A stretch of DNA of 36,357 nt. Source: a virus. Of this stretch, positions 16,115 through 28,327 are shown one piece after another (the first letter of the stretch is position 1; every line of letters begins with the position of its first letter). Below the pieces are notes generated by a model. That model had not been told where the DNA came from. It was given only the letters and a program-made list of their open reading frames with translations, and did no database searches. Location of the stretch: UHGV virus genome UHGV-1353415; one strand, given 5' to 3'. The translations under genes and the position numbers were made by a program.

Positions 16115-16474
16115 ATTTTAACTAATTGTTTTTAAACTGTTTTTTTCATTGCGGGTTTTTCAATGTATAAGTAAGTTAAGCAACTTATCATTGCACAAAT
16201 TGATAAAGATATTGCTGCAAACGCAGTATAGTTTAATGAGCTTGAAATGAAATTAAAGGTCATTACCATGCTTAAGCCATGCATCAAATAAATGCTGTAA
16301 CTTACAGAACCCGCCACCTTGAAGAACTTGGTGTTTATAATTTGAAAAGCTTTGGAGCCAGTACACGCACTTAAAAAAAACAAAAATAGCGGAATCACTA
16401 TGTAAACATTGTAAATGTTAAAGTCCTGCCAGTATGCAACAGCAATAAGCGATAAAAGGGGTAATGACTCCAAC

Positions 16475-16978
16475 TTACTGATAGTGTTTTATGTTCAGAT
16501 AATGCCCGATGACCTTGTCATGCAGCTCCACCGATTTTGAGAACGACAGTGACTTCCGTCCCAGCCTTGCCAGATGTTGTCTCAGATTCAGGTTATGCCG
16601 CTCAATTCGCTGAGTGTAACGCTTGCTGATTACGTGCAGCTTTCCCTTCAGGCGGGATTCATACAGCGGCCAGCCATCCGTCATCCATACCACGACCTCA
16701 AAGGCCGACAGCAGGCTTAGAAGACGCTCCAGTGTGGCCAGAGTGCGTTCACCGAATACGTGCGCAACAACCGTCTTCCGGAGCCTGTCATACGCGTAAA
16801 ACAGCCAGCGCTGGCGCGATTTAGCCCCGACGTATCCCCACTGTTCGTCCATTTCCGCGCAGACGATGACGTCACTGCCCGGCTGTATGCGCGAGGTTAC
16901 CGACTGCGGCCTGAGTTTTTTAAATGGCGGAAAATCGTGTTGAGGCCAACGCCCATAATGCGGGCGGTTGCCCGGCAT
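16475..16978 (-). CDS. insB: IS1 InsB (transposase frame, expressed as InsAB' by frameshift)
   Basis: 167-aa product ..[44 protein letters not shown].. matches IS1 InsB. Confidence 0.85.
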
Positions 16979-17172
16979 CCAACGCCATTCATGGCCATAT
17001 CAATGATTTTCTGGTGCGTACCGGGTTGAGAAGCGGTGTAAGTGAACTGCAGTTGCCATGTTTTACGGCAGTGAGAGCAGAGATAGCGCTGATGTCCGGC
17101 GGTGCTTTTGCCGTTACGCACCACCCCGTCAGTAGCTGAACAGGAGGGACAGCTGATAGAAACAGAAGCCAC
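16897..17172 (-). CDS. insA: IS1 InsA
   Basis: 91-aa product [43 protein letters not shown].. matches IS1 InsA. Confidence 0.9.
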
Positions 17173-18327
17173 TGGAGCACCTCAAAAACACCATCATACA
17201 CTAAATCAGTAAGTTGGCAGCATCACCATAAAAGGTACACAATTGTCATCATTACGCTATTGGCTTGTTTGATAGCGTTGTTCTTTAGGTAACCAGAAGC
17301 TAGCGCTGCAACAAAGCCACCAATAAAGCAAAAGAGAAGAGTGGCAAACATTTCACTGATAAGCCCTTGGCGGTAAGCAATTAATACCGAGAAAAGCATA
17401 ATTATTACCGAAAAACATGCATCTCTTATTGATTTTACGAACATAGAGATATATGGTAAAATTATATAAAAACCCCACTCATATGCAAGAGTCCAGATAA
17501 CCCCGCCAACGATTAAAGATCCATGAATAGAAGGTGTAAGGCCATTAGGGTCAATTATACCAAACGTAAAATATCGGCCAACTTCAACAATAATGTTGTG
17601 AATCCCAATGCTATCGTTGGGTCGAATTAATTCAGAAACACAAACAACGCAAAGCACCATGAATGCATACATTGGAATTAGTCTCTTAACTCGCGCCGAC
17701 AAAAATATTGCAGCATTGTTTATTGGTTTATTTATTATTTTTCTAAAGAAGAGAAACCCTGTAATCATAAAGAATATCATGACTGGAATGGAGCCAAAAT
17801 ATGCAATAGCCAATAAACTATTGTTGCTTGACTTCGCCGTAAATCCATCATTCAAAAATATACTCCATTTATCATGATAAAGATAATTGAACATATATAC
17901 TGAATGGTGAAGGGCGACCATGACAGCCGCCAACCCCCTGAGGCAAGATAAATTGTCATCACCTCGCAACCCAAAAGAAGAGTCTGCAACTAATTCATTC
18001 TTAAACCTTCCGGCAATCCAAAAAACAAAAAATACAGGGATGGAAGATAAAATAAAGATAATAAACGTCAAGTCAAACATAAAAACGCTCACGACCATTA
18101 GGGATTATATAATATCCTGATGTTAAATCATTTAAAGCTATACTTCATTACATTTATATAAAAACGGTAATGGAAAAGATGGTATGAAAATTTCCGCTTT
18201 AAAAACAATTGGATATAATTCTTTCTGTTCTCGTGTTAATCCTATCAAAAAAATGGGATGGGTGCATCATCAACGATGCGCGTGCAGGTTAGTTTGATGA
18301 CTACCCGCTGAAGTGAAAATTGTGTTG

Positions 18328-18629: not shown

Positions 18630-19808
18630 ATGGCTATAAGCGACACAAAACTGCGTACTATTTATGGTAAACCATATTCGGGCCCACAAGAAGTGGCTGA
18701 TGCCGATGGCCTCAGCGTACGAATTTCACCGAAGGGGGTCATCCAGTTCCAGTACCGCTATCGCTGGCATGGCAAGCCTAATCGACTTGGGCTTGGTCGA
18801 TACCCATCCCTGTCTTTGAAGGATGCCAGACAGATCACTGCTGACTTGCGAAAGCTCTATTTCTCAGGAACGGATCCACGCACTTATTTTGAAGAGAAGG
18901 TGGAGAACTCCATGACGGTCGCCCAGTGTCTCGACTACTGGTTCGACAACTACGTCTCTACAACTCTCAGAGAAAAGACCCAGGCACTTTACCGATCAAC
19001 GGTTATGAAGCGCATGTATGACGCCTTCCCTAATCGTCCGGCATCTTCTATCACGGTTAAGCAATGGGTTGACCTGCTTACCGAAGAAGAAAGAGATAAT
19101 CCACGCCGAGCAAGGCAGGTGCTAAGTCAACTAAGATCAGCAATAAGTTGGTGCATGCGGCGTCAGTTGATAGATAGTTGCGCAATTATGAGCATCCAAC
19201 CAAGGGACTTCGGCTCCCGCGCTGAGGTAGGGGAGCGGGTACTGTCGTATCACGAACTGGCTAAGATTTGGCTTGCTATTGAAAGAAGCCGTGCGTCTAC
19301 GTCAAATAAGCTCCTTCATCAGATGCTTATGCTGTGGGGGTCGAGGCTCTCAGAGCTTAGGCTGGCAACAAAGACAGAATTTGACCTGCTGGACAACGTA
19401 TGGACCGTACCGAAAGAGCATAGCAAGATGGGTAATGTTATCCGCCGTCCAATCTTCGAACAAATTAAGCCTTTTCTCGAAAAGGCCATGACAACGTACA
19501 ATGATGTTCTTTTCCCTGGAGAAGACATAAACAAACCGATCAGCATCGCTGCAGCCAACCGATTCGTAAATAGAATAAGGGGAGGGATGGACATAGGTTA
19601 CTGGCGAACACATGATTTCAGAAGAACGCTTGTTACACGGCTGTCCGAGATGAATGTCGAGCCCCATGTTACTGAGCGAATGCTCGGTCATGAACTTGGC
19701 GGGATAATGTCCGTGTACAATAAACACGACTGGATAGAGGCTCAGCGCAAAGCGTATGAGCTTCACGCTGATAAATTGTTCTGGCACATCAGGAACATTT
19801 CTGGTTAA
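18630..19808 (+). CDS. int: tyrosine integrase (P4-type, with N-terminal arm-binding domain)
   Basis: 392 aa; catalytic-type motifs ..HDFRRT.. and ..LGHELGGIMSVYNKHD.. near the C-terminus; N-terminal ..LSVRISPKGVIQFQYRYRW.. arm-binding fold signature. Confidence 0.85.
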   Translation: MAISDTKLRTIYGKPYSGPQEVADADGLSVRISPKGVIQFQYRYRWHGKPNRLGLGRYPSLSLKDARQITADLRKLYFSGTDPRTYFEEKVENSMTVAQCLDYWFDNYVSTTLREKTQALYRSTVMKRMYDAFPNRPASSITVKQWVDLLTEEERDNPRRARQVLSQLRSAISWCMRRQLIDSCAIMSIQPRDFGSRAEVGERVLSYHELAKIWLAIERSRASTSNKLLHQMLMLWGSRLSELRLATKTEFDLLDNVWTVPKEHSKMGNVIRRPIFEQIKPFLEKAMTTYNDVLFPGEDINKPISIAAANRFVNRIRGGMDIGYWRTHDFRRTLVTRLSEMNVEPHVTERMLGHELGGIMSVYNKHDWIEAQRKAYELHADKLFWHIRNISG

Positions 19809-19980: not shown

Positions 19981-20057
19981 CTTAATTCTCCAGGCAAAAA
20001 GAAACCGCCATATAGCGGCTCTATCAGATATGTACAGGCCTCATCGAGTGTGAGGCG

Positions 20058-20402
20058 TTAGTCCTTGCGTAGCTCGCTGATTCTTCTGTAAGTCTCTGGT
20101 GCTTTGTTTCCGTGTATCTTCATTTCAGACTTCAACAGAGCAACGAGAGAATCCCATTCGTTGAGGATGCCTTTGAATGCCGGAACGCGCTTTGCAACCT
20201 TGTCGAATGAATCTCTGATTTCTGGAATCTGCTCAACAAGTGCAACGCATCGTCTGAAATCGGCTGCGTCATGTGGAGCACCGAAGCCATGACCATAGAT
20301 ATTCTTTTTCAGTCCACATGCGATTGAGGCAAGAGTTGCGCTACTGATGCCAACATCGCCAGTCGATTGCCATTTCAAAACTTTCATAGCCAAATCTGAC
20401 AT
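20058..20402 (-). CDS. hypothetical protein
   Basis: 114-aa ORF with SD GGAG 8 nt upstream; directly downstream of two hairpin terminators. Confidence 0.5.
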   Translation of the reverse strand: MSDLAMKVLKWQSTGDVGISSATLASIACGLKKNIYGHGFGAPHDAADFRRCVALVEQIPEIRDSFDKVAKRVPAFKGILNEWDSLVALLKSEMKIHGNKAPETYRRISELRKD

Positions 20403-20410
20403 TTCTTGTC

Positions 20411-20470
20411 TCCATAAAACAAAACTCGCCGTAGCGAGTTCAGATAAAAGAAAACCCGCACTCGGCGGGT
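20411..20470 (-). terminator. two tandem Rho-independent terminators (minus strand)
   Basis: Minus-strand hairpins ACCCGCCGAGTGCGGGT + TTTTCTTTT and ACTCGCTACGGCGAGT + TTTTGTTTT. Confidence 0.5.
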
Positions 20471-20750
20471 TCGCATTCGTTCAAATTGCGTTTACTTCTT
20501 GGCGTTCTGTTCATCCATATCGATATACCATGGGTTGCTTCCCTTGGGCATGTTTAACGACTGCTCGCGATAGTATCTGATGCGCTCCATGAAATACTCG
20601 CGTGAGTGCTCAGGTTGCTCTCATGATACCTGCTCAGTGATAACAGGCATGTTAAGGCGCTCTCTGTACTCCATGCCTGATGCTGCAAGGTCAACGTTTA
20701 CCTTGTTCTGTTTTTCTTTCGATTTCTCGGCGATGTTATGCCTGACATTG

Positions 20751-20993
20751 TCAACCCGCCTCCTTCTGAACATAACGGTTATAAATCAGTCCCTGAGGGC
20801 CATAAGGAAGCGGGATGTGCAACTCCTCTGGTTCAGAAACTATCCATTCCCCGGCCATCTCCGCTGGAGAGGTAATGATAAGTTGTTTGCTAATAAAAGG
20901 ACCACTCCTCTCAACAACAAGCTTACCATCTTCATTAATAAAAGCTTGGATGTCAGGTGTGCTTCCACACTTGGTGATGCAGCGTTTGAACAT
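20751..20993 (-). CDS. hypothetical 80-aa protein (accessory gene with own promoter)
   Basis: ORF MFKRCITKCG..; extended -10 promoter upstream and terminators downstream on the same strand. Confidence 0.5.
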   Translation of the reverse strand: MFKRCITKCGSTPDIQAFINEDGKLVVERSGPFISKQLIITSPAEMAGEWIVSEPEELHIPLPYGPQGLIYNRYVQKEAG

Positions 20994-21000
20994 TTTGTGT

Positions 21001-21008
21001 CCCCCCCC
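21001..21008 (-). repeat. G8 homopolymer (C8 on + strand) in the 5' leader / SD region
   Basis: Minus-strand ATGGGGGGGGACACAAA ATG; tract sits where the ribosome-binding site should be. Confidence 0.7.
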
Positions 21009-21025
21009 ATTTTATGTACGGGGTA

Positions 21026-21060
21026 ATTATAACACATTGAAATATAGTAATATTTGACGT
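21026..21060 (-). promoter_or_regulatory. extended -10 promoter (TGTTATAAT on minus strand) for the 80-aa gene
   Basis: Minus-strand TGnTATAAT at 21026..21034, about 33 nt upstream of the ATG; -35 weak. Confidence 0.4.
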
Positions 21061-21121
21061 AGATTTCTTTTGATCTATAAGCGGTTTTTTAATGCTTTTA
21101 AGTTATAAATACTTGTTTTCA

Positions 21122-21793
21122 TCACCCATCTTGCTGCGGTGCTACTATTGAAAAGTACTCACACCCTTTAGCCCAAATAGTTTTGATAGTTGTCCAACTG
21201 ACTGGAACCTTGATTTCGATTCTCCCGCTGCCGTCACAAGTTTCGCAATCATCATCACCAAAGCATTCCGGGCAGCTTATAAACGTAGTTTCTGAAAATT
21301 CACCGGATAGCACACCCTTAGCGCCGTTCTCAGCGGTTAGTTTCTTCGGCACTATAACCCAACCATCCGGAGTTACCGGAGAGTTGCCGGGTTCTTTAAT
21401 GTGCAAACGAGGCTCACCATCTTTTGGTTCAGGCCACTGACGTTCCATGTTGATCTTCAATTTATTTTCCATAGCAGCGGTAATTTCAGCATCACTGATA
21501 CCGGCACGGCGCTGTGCATCCCACAACAGGAACTGCATATCAGCCCACTCGCTGAGATCGTCAGGTTCGGCTGCGGCTTCCAGAGCCTCTTTTGAGAGGT
21601 GTTTCAGTGGACCAATGGGGCCAACGCAGCCAAATGTGGAGTCAGACCATTTGGCATGCTCGTGGCGAATCTGTTCGCGTTCCAGTGATGCCAGTGCAAT
21701 TCGTGCCAGTTCCATTTGTTCGCCACGAGTAAGCCCGTTTTCAAGCGGATTTTTAATGAATAATTCGATACGTTCTTTGGTAATAGTGGTCAT
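21122..21793 (-). CDS. MazG-like nucleotide pyrophosphohydrolase-domain protein with C-terminal Cys-rich (zinc-ribbon-like) region
   Basis: 223 aa; N-terminal ..EWADMQFLLWDAQRRAGISDAEITAAMENKL.. MazG-like pattern; C-terminal CPECFGDDDCETCDGSG. Confidence 0.45.
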   Translation of the reverse strand: MTTITKERIELFIKNPLENGLTRGEQMELARIALASLEREQIRHEHAKWSDSTFGCVGPIGPLKHLSKEALEAAAEPDDLSEWADMQFLLWDAQRRAGISDAEITAAMENKLKINMERQWPEPKDGEPRLHIKEPGNSPVTPDGWVIVPKKLTAENGAKGVLSGEFSETTFISCPECFGDDDCETCDGSGRIEIKVPVSWTTIKTIWAKGCEYFSIVAPQQDG

Positions 21794-27062: not shown

Positions 27063-27362
27063 TCAAATAAGTGGTTTGCTGCCTAATTTCATTTTCTGGC
27101 GACCAACACAAGTCACACCCATTTCACTGCGTGGCTTGCGGTAGTAAATACGATTCTGTTTACTCTCGACTTCTTCTGCCTTCTTGCAGCGAAGGCTTCC
27201 GAGTGATGCCGCTTTGTCTGCTCTGACGCAACCAGAGAGCTTTAGCGCAATTTTTCGCGCCAGTGCTTCATTACTGCGTCGCTCGGCAATAAGTTCTGCT
27301 CTGCGAGCTTTGTAGCGGCTTTTTGCCGTACCTTTGGATTCTTTCCAGACAATGGTTACCAT
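27063..27362 (-). CDS. N: N-like transcription antiterminator
   Basis: ATG at 27362; Arg-rich N-terminal motif (AKSRYKARRAELIAERR); C-terminus ..NRIYYRKPRSEMGVTCVGRQKMKLGSKPLI aligns with lambda N ..QRTWYSKPGERGITCSGRQKIKGKSIPLI. Confidence 0.7.
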   Translation of the reverse strand: MVTIVWKESKGTAKSRYKARRAELIAERRSNEALARKIALKLSGCVRADKAASLGSLRCKKAEEVESKQNRIYYRKPRSEMGVTCVGRQKMKLGSKPLI

Positions 27363-27555
27363 GATGGTCTCCTTTAAGTGGCTTTGGCGCATGACGCGTC
27401 GAGGTGCTTATCTTCTCGATCGCTGTCTTGCAGCTGCAATTCGCGCCATCCCCAAAACCACTCAAGTTCTGGCCTCAACGGTTAGGTTGAGAGTCCGTCG
27501 ATGTTAAAGAGCCTGCCAATCTGTTCCGTTTGGCTTCCAGCGTCCTGCTGGTGGC

Positions 27556-27652: not shown

Positions 27653-27678
27653 AAATAAAAAAGGGGCGAAAGCCCCTT
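27653..27678 (-). terminator. terminator at the end of the repressor gene
   Basis: GGGGC-GAAA-GCCCC hairpin with T-run on the minus strand, overlapping the c2 stop. Confidence 0.5.
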
Positions 27679-28327
27679 AAGGAAGGTTTGCTAGCTTGGC
27701 ATCAACGACAACGCCAATGATTTTACAGTTCCCATTGATTTCAATCATTGGGTATTGTGGATTGAGTGGTTTCAGGAATTTTCTACCGGCATCAATAACT
27801 AACTTTTTGAATGTCGCCTCGTTTTCCCCTTCAAGTTTGGCGACTACCAGCTTTCCATTACGTGGTTCGACTTCTGGGTCGACGAGAATAATCATCCCCT
27901 CAGGAATACTCAGTCCTGCCGGGGCAGTCATTGAATCGCCTTTAACGTCGAGCCAAAAAGAGTCTTCAGAACAATCTACCGTTGTGTCGTACCAGTTATC
28001 TATTGCACGCCTATGATATGGCTCTACAGCTTCCATCCAACATCCTGCGCTTACCCAACTAATTAGAGGATACGAACCTCTTGGATCATGCCTGCTGTGA
28101 TAGGCAATGTTTGAAAGACTATCCTCTCCTTTCAACAGGTAATCAGGGGAGCACTGCAAAGCCTTGGCTAAGGCCAATAGGTTTTCGCCATTGGGCTCAG
28201 TTTCAGATCGCTCCCATTGGGAAATAGCAACATTAGACACGCCAACCATCTTGCCAAGGGCAGCCTGCCTAATCTTGAGTTCTTTTCTGCGAGCGCGAAT
28301 ACGCTCACCCATCAGTTGTGTATTCAT
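27677..28327 (-). CDS. c2: phage repressor, P22 C2-type (HTH plus LexA-like S24 autocleavage domain)
   Basis: 216 aa, MNTQLMGERIRARRKELKIRQAALGKMVGVSNVAISQWERSE.. closely matches my recollection of P22 c2; C-terminal ..GDSMTAPAGLSIPEGMIILVDPE.. S24 motif. Confidence 0.9.
   Translation of the reverse strand: MNTQLMGERIRARRKELKIRQAALGKMVGVSNVAISQWERSETEPNGENLLALAKALQCSPDYLLKGEDSLSNIAYHSRHDPRGSYPLISWVSAGCWMEAVEPYHRRAIDNWYDTTVDCSEDSFWLDVKGDSMTAPAGLSIPEGMIILVDPEVEPRNGKLVVAKLEGENEATFKKLVIDAGRKFLKPLNPQYPMIEINGNCKIIGVVVDAKLANLP

What the first reader, a model, noticed from the sequence alone, without database searches (positions are those of the whole stretch)
20751..21060. Autonomous 80-aa accessory gene with its own extended -10 promoter
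The gene 20751..20993 (-) has a perfect extended -10 (TGTTATAAT) about 33 nt upstream and the tandem terminators downstream, so it is an independent transcription unit inside the early-left region. That is the signature of a lysogen-expressed moron (exclusion, defence or host-modulating factor). The product has no family I recognise.
Basis: partly seen in the sequence, partly recalled or inferred. Interest (0 to 1): 0.5.

Follow-up and report, generated by a model that had tools for sequence, protein, structure and literature searches.

The report
Portable promoter-gene cassette in a prophage
This is a real, uncharacterised 80-residue phage accessory gene that carries its own conserved promoter from prophage to prophage (a "moron"); here it is fused to a dead copy of a DNA-polymerase subunit gene, and what its protein does is unknown.

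Summary
The ORF 20751..20993(-) and the perfect extended -10 (TGTTATAAT, 21034..21026) are real. The terminators are not directly downstream. A decayed DNA polymerase III theta (HolE/Hot-like) gene (20773..20492) overlaps the ORF end, and the two terminators follow it, 279 nt after the ORF stop.

The ORF encodes a genuine but rare protein family (PHROG 9613, function unknown). About six sequence clusters exist among 1.84 billion representatives. The only named sources are E. coli and Pectobacterium; four divergent clusters come from unassigned read-archive assemblies.

The key result is comparative. Homologues only 45-70% identical sit in different prophages, either at the early-left end or in the nin region. 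All keep the same extended -10 and an invariant CTACGTC box about 40 nt upstream of the predicted transcript start. Three lineages have an intrinsic terminator directly after the ORF. Closely related phages (HK140, Sf101, HK544) lack the cassette.

This fits the classical moron architecture. Expression in lysogens remains untested.

The predicted fold is a small six-stranded beta-barrel with only weak, generic structural matches, so function is unassigned.

Verdict: an ordinary but well-delimited new member of a known kind. The unexplained upstream box is a modest curiosity.

The parts
21053..21064 (-). Conserved upstream box ATCTACGTCAAA, about -45 to -34 from the predicted start. Its core CTACGTC (21062..21056) is invariant in all lineages. 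TAGAT at 21077..21073 forms an inverted repeat with the ATCTA of the box.
   Evidence: It is the only exact copy in the window. It is invariant in the 7-sequence alignment A4, where the remaining intergenic DNA has diverged. The Pectobacterium-type loci carry two direct copies 21 nt apart.
21026..21034 (-). Extended -10 promoter element TGTTATAAT (TG at -15/-14, TATAAT at -12 to -7). There is no -35 hexamer. The predicted transcript start near 21019 is an inference.
   Evidence: Present in 46 of 47 E. coli-type loci. Retained as TGTTATGCT, TGTTATGAT, TGGTATGAT and TGATATATT in homologues 45-70% identical.
21001..21008 (-). G8 run that serves as the Shine-Dalgarno-like element, 7 nt before the ATG. 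Its length varies between loci.
   Evidence: Among 47 loci: GGGGAG in 7, G6 in 34, G7 in 4, G8 in 1 (plus this window), and G7 followed by C in 1. Divergent lineages have GAGGAG, AGAGGG or AAGGA at the same place. With G6, the ATG at 21037 comes into frame, which explains the database entries called at 94 aa.
20751..20993 (-). orf80, an 80-aa protein (WP_000476264.1; PHROG 9613). Predicted to be a small six-stranded beta-barrel, with no signal peptide or membrane segment.
   Evidence: Intact in 46 of 47 loci. Among close alleles there are 7 synonymous and 11 non-synonymous variant sites, a ratio of about 0.43.
20492..20773 (-). DNA polymerase III theta (HolE / P1 Hot-like) pseudogene. It has an in-frame TGA at 20623..20621. 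Its original SD (AAGGAGG, 20766..20760) and ATG (20747) are now out of frame after loss of one base.
   Evidence: Pfam PF06440 and PHROG 1105. PGAP notes an internal stop. Disrupted in 45 of 46 loci long enough to score. Alignment with L070 shows the one-base loss and a deletion of about 59 nt that fused it to orf80.
20452..20472 (-). Terminator T1. Its stem (ACCCGCC..GCGGGT plus a U run) is similar to the terminator that directly follows the ORF in Pectobacterium.
   Evidence: Its stem is not part of the segment shared with the roughly 1200 cassette-free genomes.
20422..20441 (-). Terminator T2, a backbone terminator that precedes the 114-aa gene.
   Evidence: Present in 1267 E. coli genomes, including cassette-free O157 prophages.

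Best explanation
The region is a portable accessory cassette (a moron) inserted near the xis/int end of the early-left (pL) operon of an HK97-like temperate phage.

Anatomy on the minus strand:
- an AT-rich regulatory stretch of about 110 nt with an invariant CTACGTC box at about -40;
- a sigma-70 extended -10 promoter with no -35;
- a leader of about 26 nt with a G-rich ribosome-binding site;
- orf80;
- a degenerate theta gene, fused to orf80 by a deletion;
- the terminators.

Shown: the gene is real and codes for a protein. The promoter and box co-travel with it across lineages and genome positions. Terminators close the unit. Related phages lack the cassette.

Inferred: the promoter fires independently of pL, so orf80 is made from the repressed prophage as well as by read-through during lytic growth. 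The box is a binding site for an unidentified regulator. The product, a small soluble beta-barrel with no catalytic signature, acts by binding a host or incoming-phage protein. On this reading it would be a prophage-borne host-modulating or protective factor.

The confidence of 0.65 refers to the cassette architecture (a real gene with its own functional promoter). The functional guess alone rates about 0.3.
For: - Coding. The family is recovered at 45-70% identity with invariant residues (C5, A17, F18, D22, R29, P43, G48, W50, P55, Y64, G65, Q67, G68) and in-frame indels. Differences from L033 are enriched at third codon positions (19/20/35). orf80 is intact in 46 of 47 loci, while the adjacent theta gene carries at least four different lesions.
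- Promoter. The extended -10 and the CTACGTC box keep fixed spacing in E. coli-type, L033/L070-type, Pectobacterium-type (L035, L042, L043) and L039-type loci. The surrounding intergenic sequence, the neighbouring genes and the genomic position all differ.
- Upstream gap. The gaps upstream of the gene are 128-418 nt, whereas neighbouring genes of the operon abut or overlap.
- Terminators. A hairpin plus U run directly follows the ORF in L035, L042 and L043 (-12.5, -19.7 and -17.7 kcal/mol). T1 in the window has a similar stem.
- Presence or absence. The cassette is in 88 of 5426 complete E. coli genomes. It occurs in prophages with different integrases, at sbcB and at ybhC. It is absent from all 50,697 phage records, including the closest phages HK140, Sf101 and HK544.
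- These features match the definition of a moron in PMC3594210.
Against: - No expression data exist, so promoter activity is inferred from sequence only.
- The motif count in the window is not above chance.
- GC content of orf80 (about 45%) does not stand out from its neighbours.
- Every known location is co-oriented inside an early operon, so an internal promoter is not required for expression.
- The E. coli-type copies are 94-100% identical, so their conservation largely reflects recent common descent.
Confidence: 0.65

Rival explanations
1. orf80 is an ordinary delayed-early gene of the pL operon (an 'ea' gene). It is expressed only by N-antiterminated read-through during lytic growth. The promoter-like sequence is inactive or marginal.
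For: All homologues lie co-oriented within early-left or nin-region operons. The window encodes an N-like antiterminator and a cI repressor upstream. The -35 is absent, and the motif frequency is at chance level.
Against: It does not explain why the -10 and the CTACGTC box stay invariant, at fixed spacing, in intergenic DNA that has otherwise diverged across lineages. It also does not explain why a terminator follows the ORF directly in three lineages.
Confidence: 0.2
2. orf80 and the theta homologue form a functional pair aimed at the host replisome (Pol III epsilon-theta), with orf80 as a partner or modulator of the Hot-like protein.
For: orf80 homologues are immediately followed by a theta homologue in two lineages that are about 70% identical: the window type and L070.
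Against: Theta is disrupted in 45 of 46 loci long enough to score, while orf80 stays intact. In L070 theta has its own TATAAT and also looks truncated. The Pectobacterium-type and L039-type lineages have no theta nearby.
Confidence: 0.07
3. The conserved upstream stretch is not a promoter. It would be another functional element that happens to adjoin the ORF, such as a small RNA, an antisense promoter or a recombination joint.
For: On the plus strand, the scanner finds a TTGAAA-17-TAGATT promoter-like site that overlaps the box (21037..21065). The upstream stretch is more conserved than the coding sequence between the window and L033 (about 85% by eye over the core of alignment A1 against 68%).
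Against: No Rfam family matches. The leader has no significant structure (z 0.67). The plus-strand -10 candidates are not conserved in the Pectobacterium-type loci (read directly). The box-plus-promoter pattern was found only in front of members of this gene family.
Confidence: 0.05
4. orf80 is a spurious ORF.
For: It has no family annotation and is short. Overlapping ORFs of similar length exist on the other strand.
Against: The protein family is conserved at 45-70% identity with in-frame indels. A ribosome-binding site lies at the same position in every lineage. The structure prediction is confident (pLDDT 80, pTM 0.69).
Confidence: 0.02

Closest known systems
Morons of lambdoid / HK97-like phages (e.g. 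HK97 gene 15; definition in Cumby, Davidson & Maxwell 2012, PMC3594210)
   Same: A single small gene with its own promoter and terminator. It is present in some phages and absent from close relatives, and it moves horizontally between genome positions.
   Different: It lies inside early operons rather than the late operon. Its GC content is not distinctive. In this window it is fused to a pseudogene. Prophage expression and host benefit have not been shown. The product is unrelated to gp15 and to any named moron product.
PHROG 9613 (function unknown)
   Same: Full-length match, E 2.6e-50, covering residues 1-80.
   Different: The family carries no functional information.
PilZ-type and split-barrel small beta-barrels; head-tail adaptor-like SF1141 (PDB 2kz4)
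   Different: Sequence identity is 10% or less. Foldseek finds nothing with E below 1. The PilZ c-di-GMP motifs are not conserved in the family alignment. The genomic context is not structural.
Bacteriophage P1 Hot / E. coli HolE (Pol III theta); applies to the downstream ORF only
   Same: The N-terminal half matches PF06440 above its cutoff (59.6 against 34.6 bits). The C-terminal part matches PHROG 1105.
   Different: Here the gene is interrupted by an in-frame TGA and has lost the frame of its original start. It is a pseudogene in nearly all copies.

Membership tests
Moron (independent accessory transcription unit in a phage genome) | Own promoter upstream of the gene | tested here: met
   Met at sequence level only. 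A perfect extended -10 lies at 21034..21026. The TG, A-11 and T-7 are conserved in six of the seven aligned upstream sequences (the divergent E. coli copy L031 has CG in place of TG). Activity was not measured.
Moron (independent accessory transcription unit in a phage genome) | Own transcription terminator | tested here: met
   A hairpin plus U run directly follows the ORF in L035, L042 and L043. In the window the similar terminator T1 (20472..20452) follows, but only after the fused theta pseudogene.
Moron (independent accessory transcription unit in a phage genome) | Present as extra DNA relative to closely related phages | tested here: met
   No match in 50,697 phage records. HK140, Sf101, HK544 and the O157 prophage share the int-xis backbone but lack the cassette. 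It is present in 88 of 5426 E. coli genomes.
Moron (independent accessory transcription unit in a phage genome) | Base composition different from surrounding genes | tested here: not met
   orf80 has about 45-46% GC against 41-57% in its neighbours. Only the intergenic promoter region dips, to 34%.
Moron (independent accessory transcription unit in a phage genome) | Expressed from the repressed prophage | not testable with these tools
   This needs 5'-end mapping or RNA-seq in a lysogen. No paper in the library mentions WP_000476264.
PHROG 9613 | Full-length profile match | tested here: met
   E 2.6e-50, 169 bits, residues 1-80 on profile positions 3-82 of 82.
PilZ domain (c-di-GMP receptor) | RxxxR and (D/N)xSxxG binding motifs on a six-stranded barrel | tested here: not met
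DNA polymerase III theta subunit (PF06440); downstream ORF | Profile match above the gathering score, with an intact reading frame of about 76 aa | tested here: not met
   The profile match is met for positions 2-39 of 70 (59.6 bits). The frame is broken by TGA at 20623..20621 and by a one-base loss after the original ATG.
Known anti-phage defence systems (PADLOC-DB) | Match to any defence-protein model | tested here: not met
   No families match at E up to 1 for orf80 or its homologues P0012 and P0013.

The most novel reading that the evidence does not exclude
The invariant CTACGTC half-sites, together with the -35-less extended -10, would form a portable, factor-dependent switch. It would place orf80 under the control of a specific host or phage regulator. 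The small barrel protein would be a new type of prophage effector. One untested example, prompted by its repeated linkage to theta genes and its conserved C-terminal YGPQGLIY segment, is a binder of a replisome component.
Probability: 0.1. Interest if true: 0.6.

Novelty: new member of a known kind. Interest (0 to 1): 0.3.

Why it matters
If the promoter is active in lysogens, orf80 is one more prophage gene expressed in about 1.6% of complete E. coli genomes and in some Pectobacterium strains, with an unknown effect on the host. The cassette has sharply defined boundaries. It also has a conserved cis-element that could be used to fish out its regulator, which makes it a compact test case for how morons are regulated and moved. 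It also corrects database annotation. The 94-aa and 85-aa versions are start-site miscalls caused by a variable G run, and the neighbouring theta gene is a pseudogene.

Tried and rejected
- Protein family libraries for orf80. Pfam, NCBIfam and PADLOC gave no match, and PHROGs gave only an unknown-function family.
- Phage records. A tblastn search of GenBank phages found no match.
- Species-representative genomes. The protein-pattern scan and the DNA-pattern scan gave only chance matches.
- Metagenome scan. It returned only E. coli-type copies and no new lineages.
- Leader RNA structure. Not significant (z 0.67).
- Rfam. Only a sub-threshold chance hit on the terminators.
- A regulon of the box within this phage. 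No other good copy exists in the window.
- The box-plus-promoter in front of other genes. Only family members and three chance hits were found.
- A link between the window's 114-aa downstream gene and the 158-aa gene downstream in Pectobacterium. No similarity.
- Known transcription-factor and alternative sigma-factor motifs. From memory only, I compared the box with motifs for CRP, FNR, MetJ, ArcA, NarL, DnaA, IHF, lambda CII, RpoE and RpoS. None fitted. This was not tested with a tool.

Full report
**1. What is in the sequence**

On the minus strand, an 80-codon ORF runs from ATG 20993 to TGA 20751. RefSeq annotates the identical protein as WP_000476264.1, "hypothetical protein". It is preceded by a 128-nt AT-rich gap (34% GC) after the upstream DUF550-family gene (dATP/dGTP pyrophosphohydrolase family; 21122..21793).

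In that gap, TGTTATAAT lies at 21034..21026. This is a perfect extended -10, with 32 nt between it and the ATG. No -35 hexamer is present, so the consensus scanner does not report this promoter. An eight-G run (21008..21001) sits 7 nt before the ATG and is the only candidate ribosome-binding site.

TGNTATAAT occurs twice in the window against 0.95 expected. That count is unremarkable on its own, since 25 of 100 shuffles reach it.

**2. What lies downstream**

The terminators do not follow the ORF directly. A homologue of the theta subunit of DNA polymerase III (HolE; phage P1 Hot) occupies 20773..20492, overlapping orf80 by 23 nt. Its N-terminal half matches Pfam PF06440 at 59.6 bits against a cutoff of 34.6. 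Its C-terminal piece matches PHROG 1105.

An in-frame TGA at 20623..20621 breaks the gene, and PGAP marks it as a pseudogene with an internal stop.

Comparison with a better preserved relative (L070) adds two points. The strong SD AAGGAGG (20766..20760) and the ATG at 20747 were theta's own start signals. That start is now out of frame after loss of one base. A deletion of about 59 nt removed the native C-terminal tail of orf80 and theta's own TATAAT promoter, fusing the two genes. This fits the family alignment, where conservation ends at "GLIY" and the tails vary.

Two intrinsic terminators then follow at 20472..20452 and 20441..20422.

**3. Genomic context**

The window is an HK97-like (Hendrixvirinae) temperate phage in vegetative order. 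Its closest records are HK140, Sf101 and HK544. The landmarks are:
- tail genes on the plus strand;
- an O-antigen-type acyltransferase interrupted by IS1 (16132..18098);
- integrase (18630..19808, plus strand);
- on the minus strand, an AlpA/Xis-like gene, a 114-aa gene, the cassette, DUF550-family and Ead/Ea22 genes, RecT, an N-like antiterminator (27063..27392) and a cI-type repressor (27677..28327).

The cassette therefore sits near the distal end of the pL operon. In E. coli chromosomes the prophage lies next to sbcB.

**4. The gene is real**

An exhaustive HMMER scan of 1.84 billion representative proteins finds only a handful of clusters. A profile search confirms them. They are:
- the E. 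coli type (seen on at least 1000 contigs, all named hypothetical);
- P0005 (70% identical);
- P0011, P0012 (Pectobacterium), P0013 and P0015 (45-52% identical).

The members are 74-80 aa long. They share an MFxxC start, AFxNEDGxLVVER, AGEW and PYGPQGLIY, with in-frame indels.

Three further lines support coding:
- Differences from L033 are enriched at third codon positions (19/20/35).
- Among the near-identical E. coli alleles there are 7 synonymous and 11 non-synonymous variant sites over 52 and 188 sites, a ratio of about 0.43.
- In 47 loci orf80 is intact in 46. The adjacent theta gene is disrupted in 45 of the 46 long enough to score, by at least four different lesions: TGA, an additional TAA, and two different frameshifts.

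**5. The promoter travels with the gene**

This is the main result. The divergent homologues occupy different places:
- L033/L070: the nin-like region of a Rac-type prophage, after DnaT/DnaC-like, PerC-like and DUF977 genes.
- L039-L041: a nin region between a DNA methylase and HNH/DUF1367/NinG/Q genes.
- L035-L038, L042, L043: just upstream of a 158-aa gene, excisionase and integrase in Pectobacterium-type prophages.

Each has a large upstream gap (170-418 nt). In each, the same elements are kept at the same spacing. These are an extended -10 (TGTTATGCT, TGTTATGAT, TGGTATGAT or TGATATATT, always keeping TG, A-11 and T-7) and an invariant CTACGTC heptamer at about -43 to -37 (window 21062..21056). 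The rest of the intergenic DNA has diverged.

Other observations on the box and promoter:
- Pectobacterium-type loci carry two direct copies of AATCTACGTC, 21 nt apart.
- In the window the box is paired with an inverted TAGAT at 21077..21073.
- Within the E. coli type, TGTTATAAT is present in 46 of 47 loci and the box in 47 of 47.
- A scan of IMG/VR for box-spacer-promoter found only members of this gene family plus three chance hits.

The conserved position at about -40 suggests a factor-binding site. I could not identify the factor.

**6. Terminators and cassette boundaries**

In L035, L042 and L043 a GC-rich hairpin followed by a U run comes directly after the stop codon (-12.5, -19.7 and -17.7 kcal/mol). 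The L035 terminator (ACCCGCCCTGTGCGGGTTTTTT) closely resembles the window's T1 (ACCCGCCGAGTGCGGGTTTTCT). The ancestral unit was therefore probably box, promoter, ORF and T1.

T2 and the following 114-aa gene belong to the backbone. They occur in 1267 E. coli genomes, including cassette-free O157 prophages that also carry tandem terminators.

orf80 with its promoter occurs in 88 of 5426 complete genomes, always together with this theta allele. It occurs in prophages with different integrases and attachment sites: sbcB and ybhC in IAI1.

Most copies share about 403 nt upstream, reaching into the zinc-finger-coding 3' end of the upstream gene. They share about 335 nt downstream.

No record among 50,697 deposited phage genomes encodes the protein.

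**7. Comparison with the moron definition**

Morons are described as having their own promoter and terminator, as being additions relative to related phages, as having atypical GC content, and as being expressed from repressed prophages (PMC3594210). Measured against this:
- The first three features are met at the sequence level.
- The GC criterion is not met.
- Expression could not be tested.
- All known locations are co-oriented within N-antiterminated early operons. The gene would therefore also be transcribed early in lytic growth, so an internal promoter is not strictly required for expression.

**8. The protein**

AlphaFold2, run on the 7-sequence alignment, gives a six-stranded small beta-barrel (pLDDT 80.3, pTM 0.69).

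The sequence has no long hydrophobic stretch, so the protein is probably soluble and cytoplasmic.

My best guess is that it acts as a stoichiometric binder of a host or phage protein, giving a host-modulating or protective effect. This is inference only, and I give it roughly 0.3.

**9. Other readings considered**

- A functional pairing with theta is suggested by adjacency in two lineages. It is contradicted by theta's decay and by its absence from the other lineages.
- A non-coding RNA or an antisense promoter in the conserved stretch finds no support. The plus-strand -10 candidates are not conserved.

**10. Verdict**

The independent-unit interpretation is well supported by comparative data. 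Lysogenic expression and function remain open.

This is a new, uncharacterised member of a known kind of element. The one unexplained feature is the conserved CTACGTC box.

Noticed in passing
window 20492..20773 (-): A DNA polymerase III theta (HolE / P1 Hot-like) homologue is fused behind orf80. It is a pseudogene, with an in-frame TGA at 20623..20621 and its original ATG at 20747 out of frame. It is disrupted in 45 of the 46 related loci long enough to score. A related locus (L070) keeps a separate copy with its own TATAAT.
   Followed up: yes
window 21001..21008 (-): The homopolymeric G run in the leader varies among loci: GGGGAG, G6, G7 or G8. With G6, the upstream ATGs at 21010 and 21037 come into frame with orf80. 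This explains database entries of 85 and 94 aa for the same gene. The ATG at 21037 lies just upstream of the -10 element.
   Followed up: yes
window 21053..21064 (-) and 21073..21077 (-): The invariant box ATCTACGTC at about -40 is paired with an inverted TAGAT. It is duplicated as direct repeats 21 nt apart in the Pectobacterium-type loci. The binding factor is unknown.
   Followed up: partly
window 16132..18098 (-): An Acyl_transf_3 (O-antigen acetylase-like, lysogenic-conversion type) gene is split by an IS1 transposase (16475..16978). The second TGNTATAAT of the window (17554..17562, minus strand) lies inside its N-terminal part.
   Followed up: partly
window 21122..21396 (-): The 3' end of the upstream DUF550 gene encodes a DnaJ-type CxxC...CxxCxGxG zinc-finger tail. 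It usually travels with the cassette: about 403 nt upstream are shared in most loci. In other prophages this tail is attached to DUF551, Ead/Ea22-like or stand-alone 'DnaJ' proteins.
   Followed up: partly
window 20058..20402 (-): A 114-aa gene (PHROG 1229, function unknown) is bracketed by terminators: T2 at 20441..20422 upstream and another at 20021..20002 downstream. It is present in about 1267 E. coli genomes. It has no obvious promoter of its own.
   Followed up: no
window 19789..19808: The integrase (plus strand) and the AlpA/Xis-like gene (minus strand) are convergent, and their 3' ends overlap by 20 nt.
   Followed up: no
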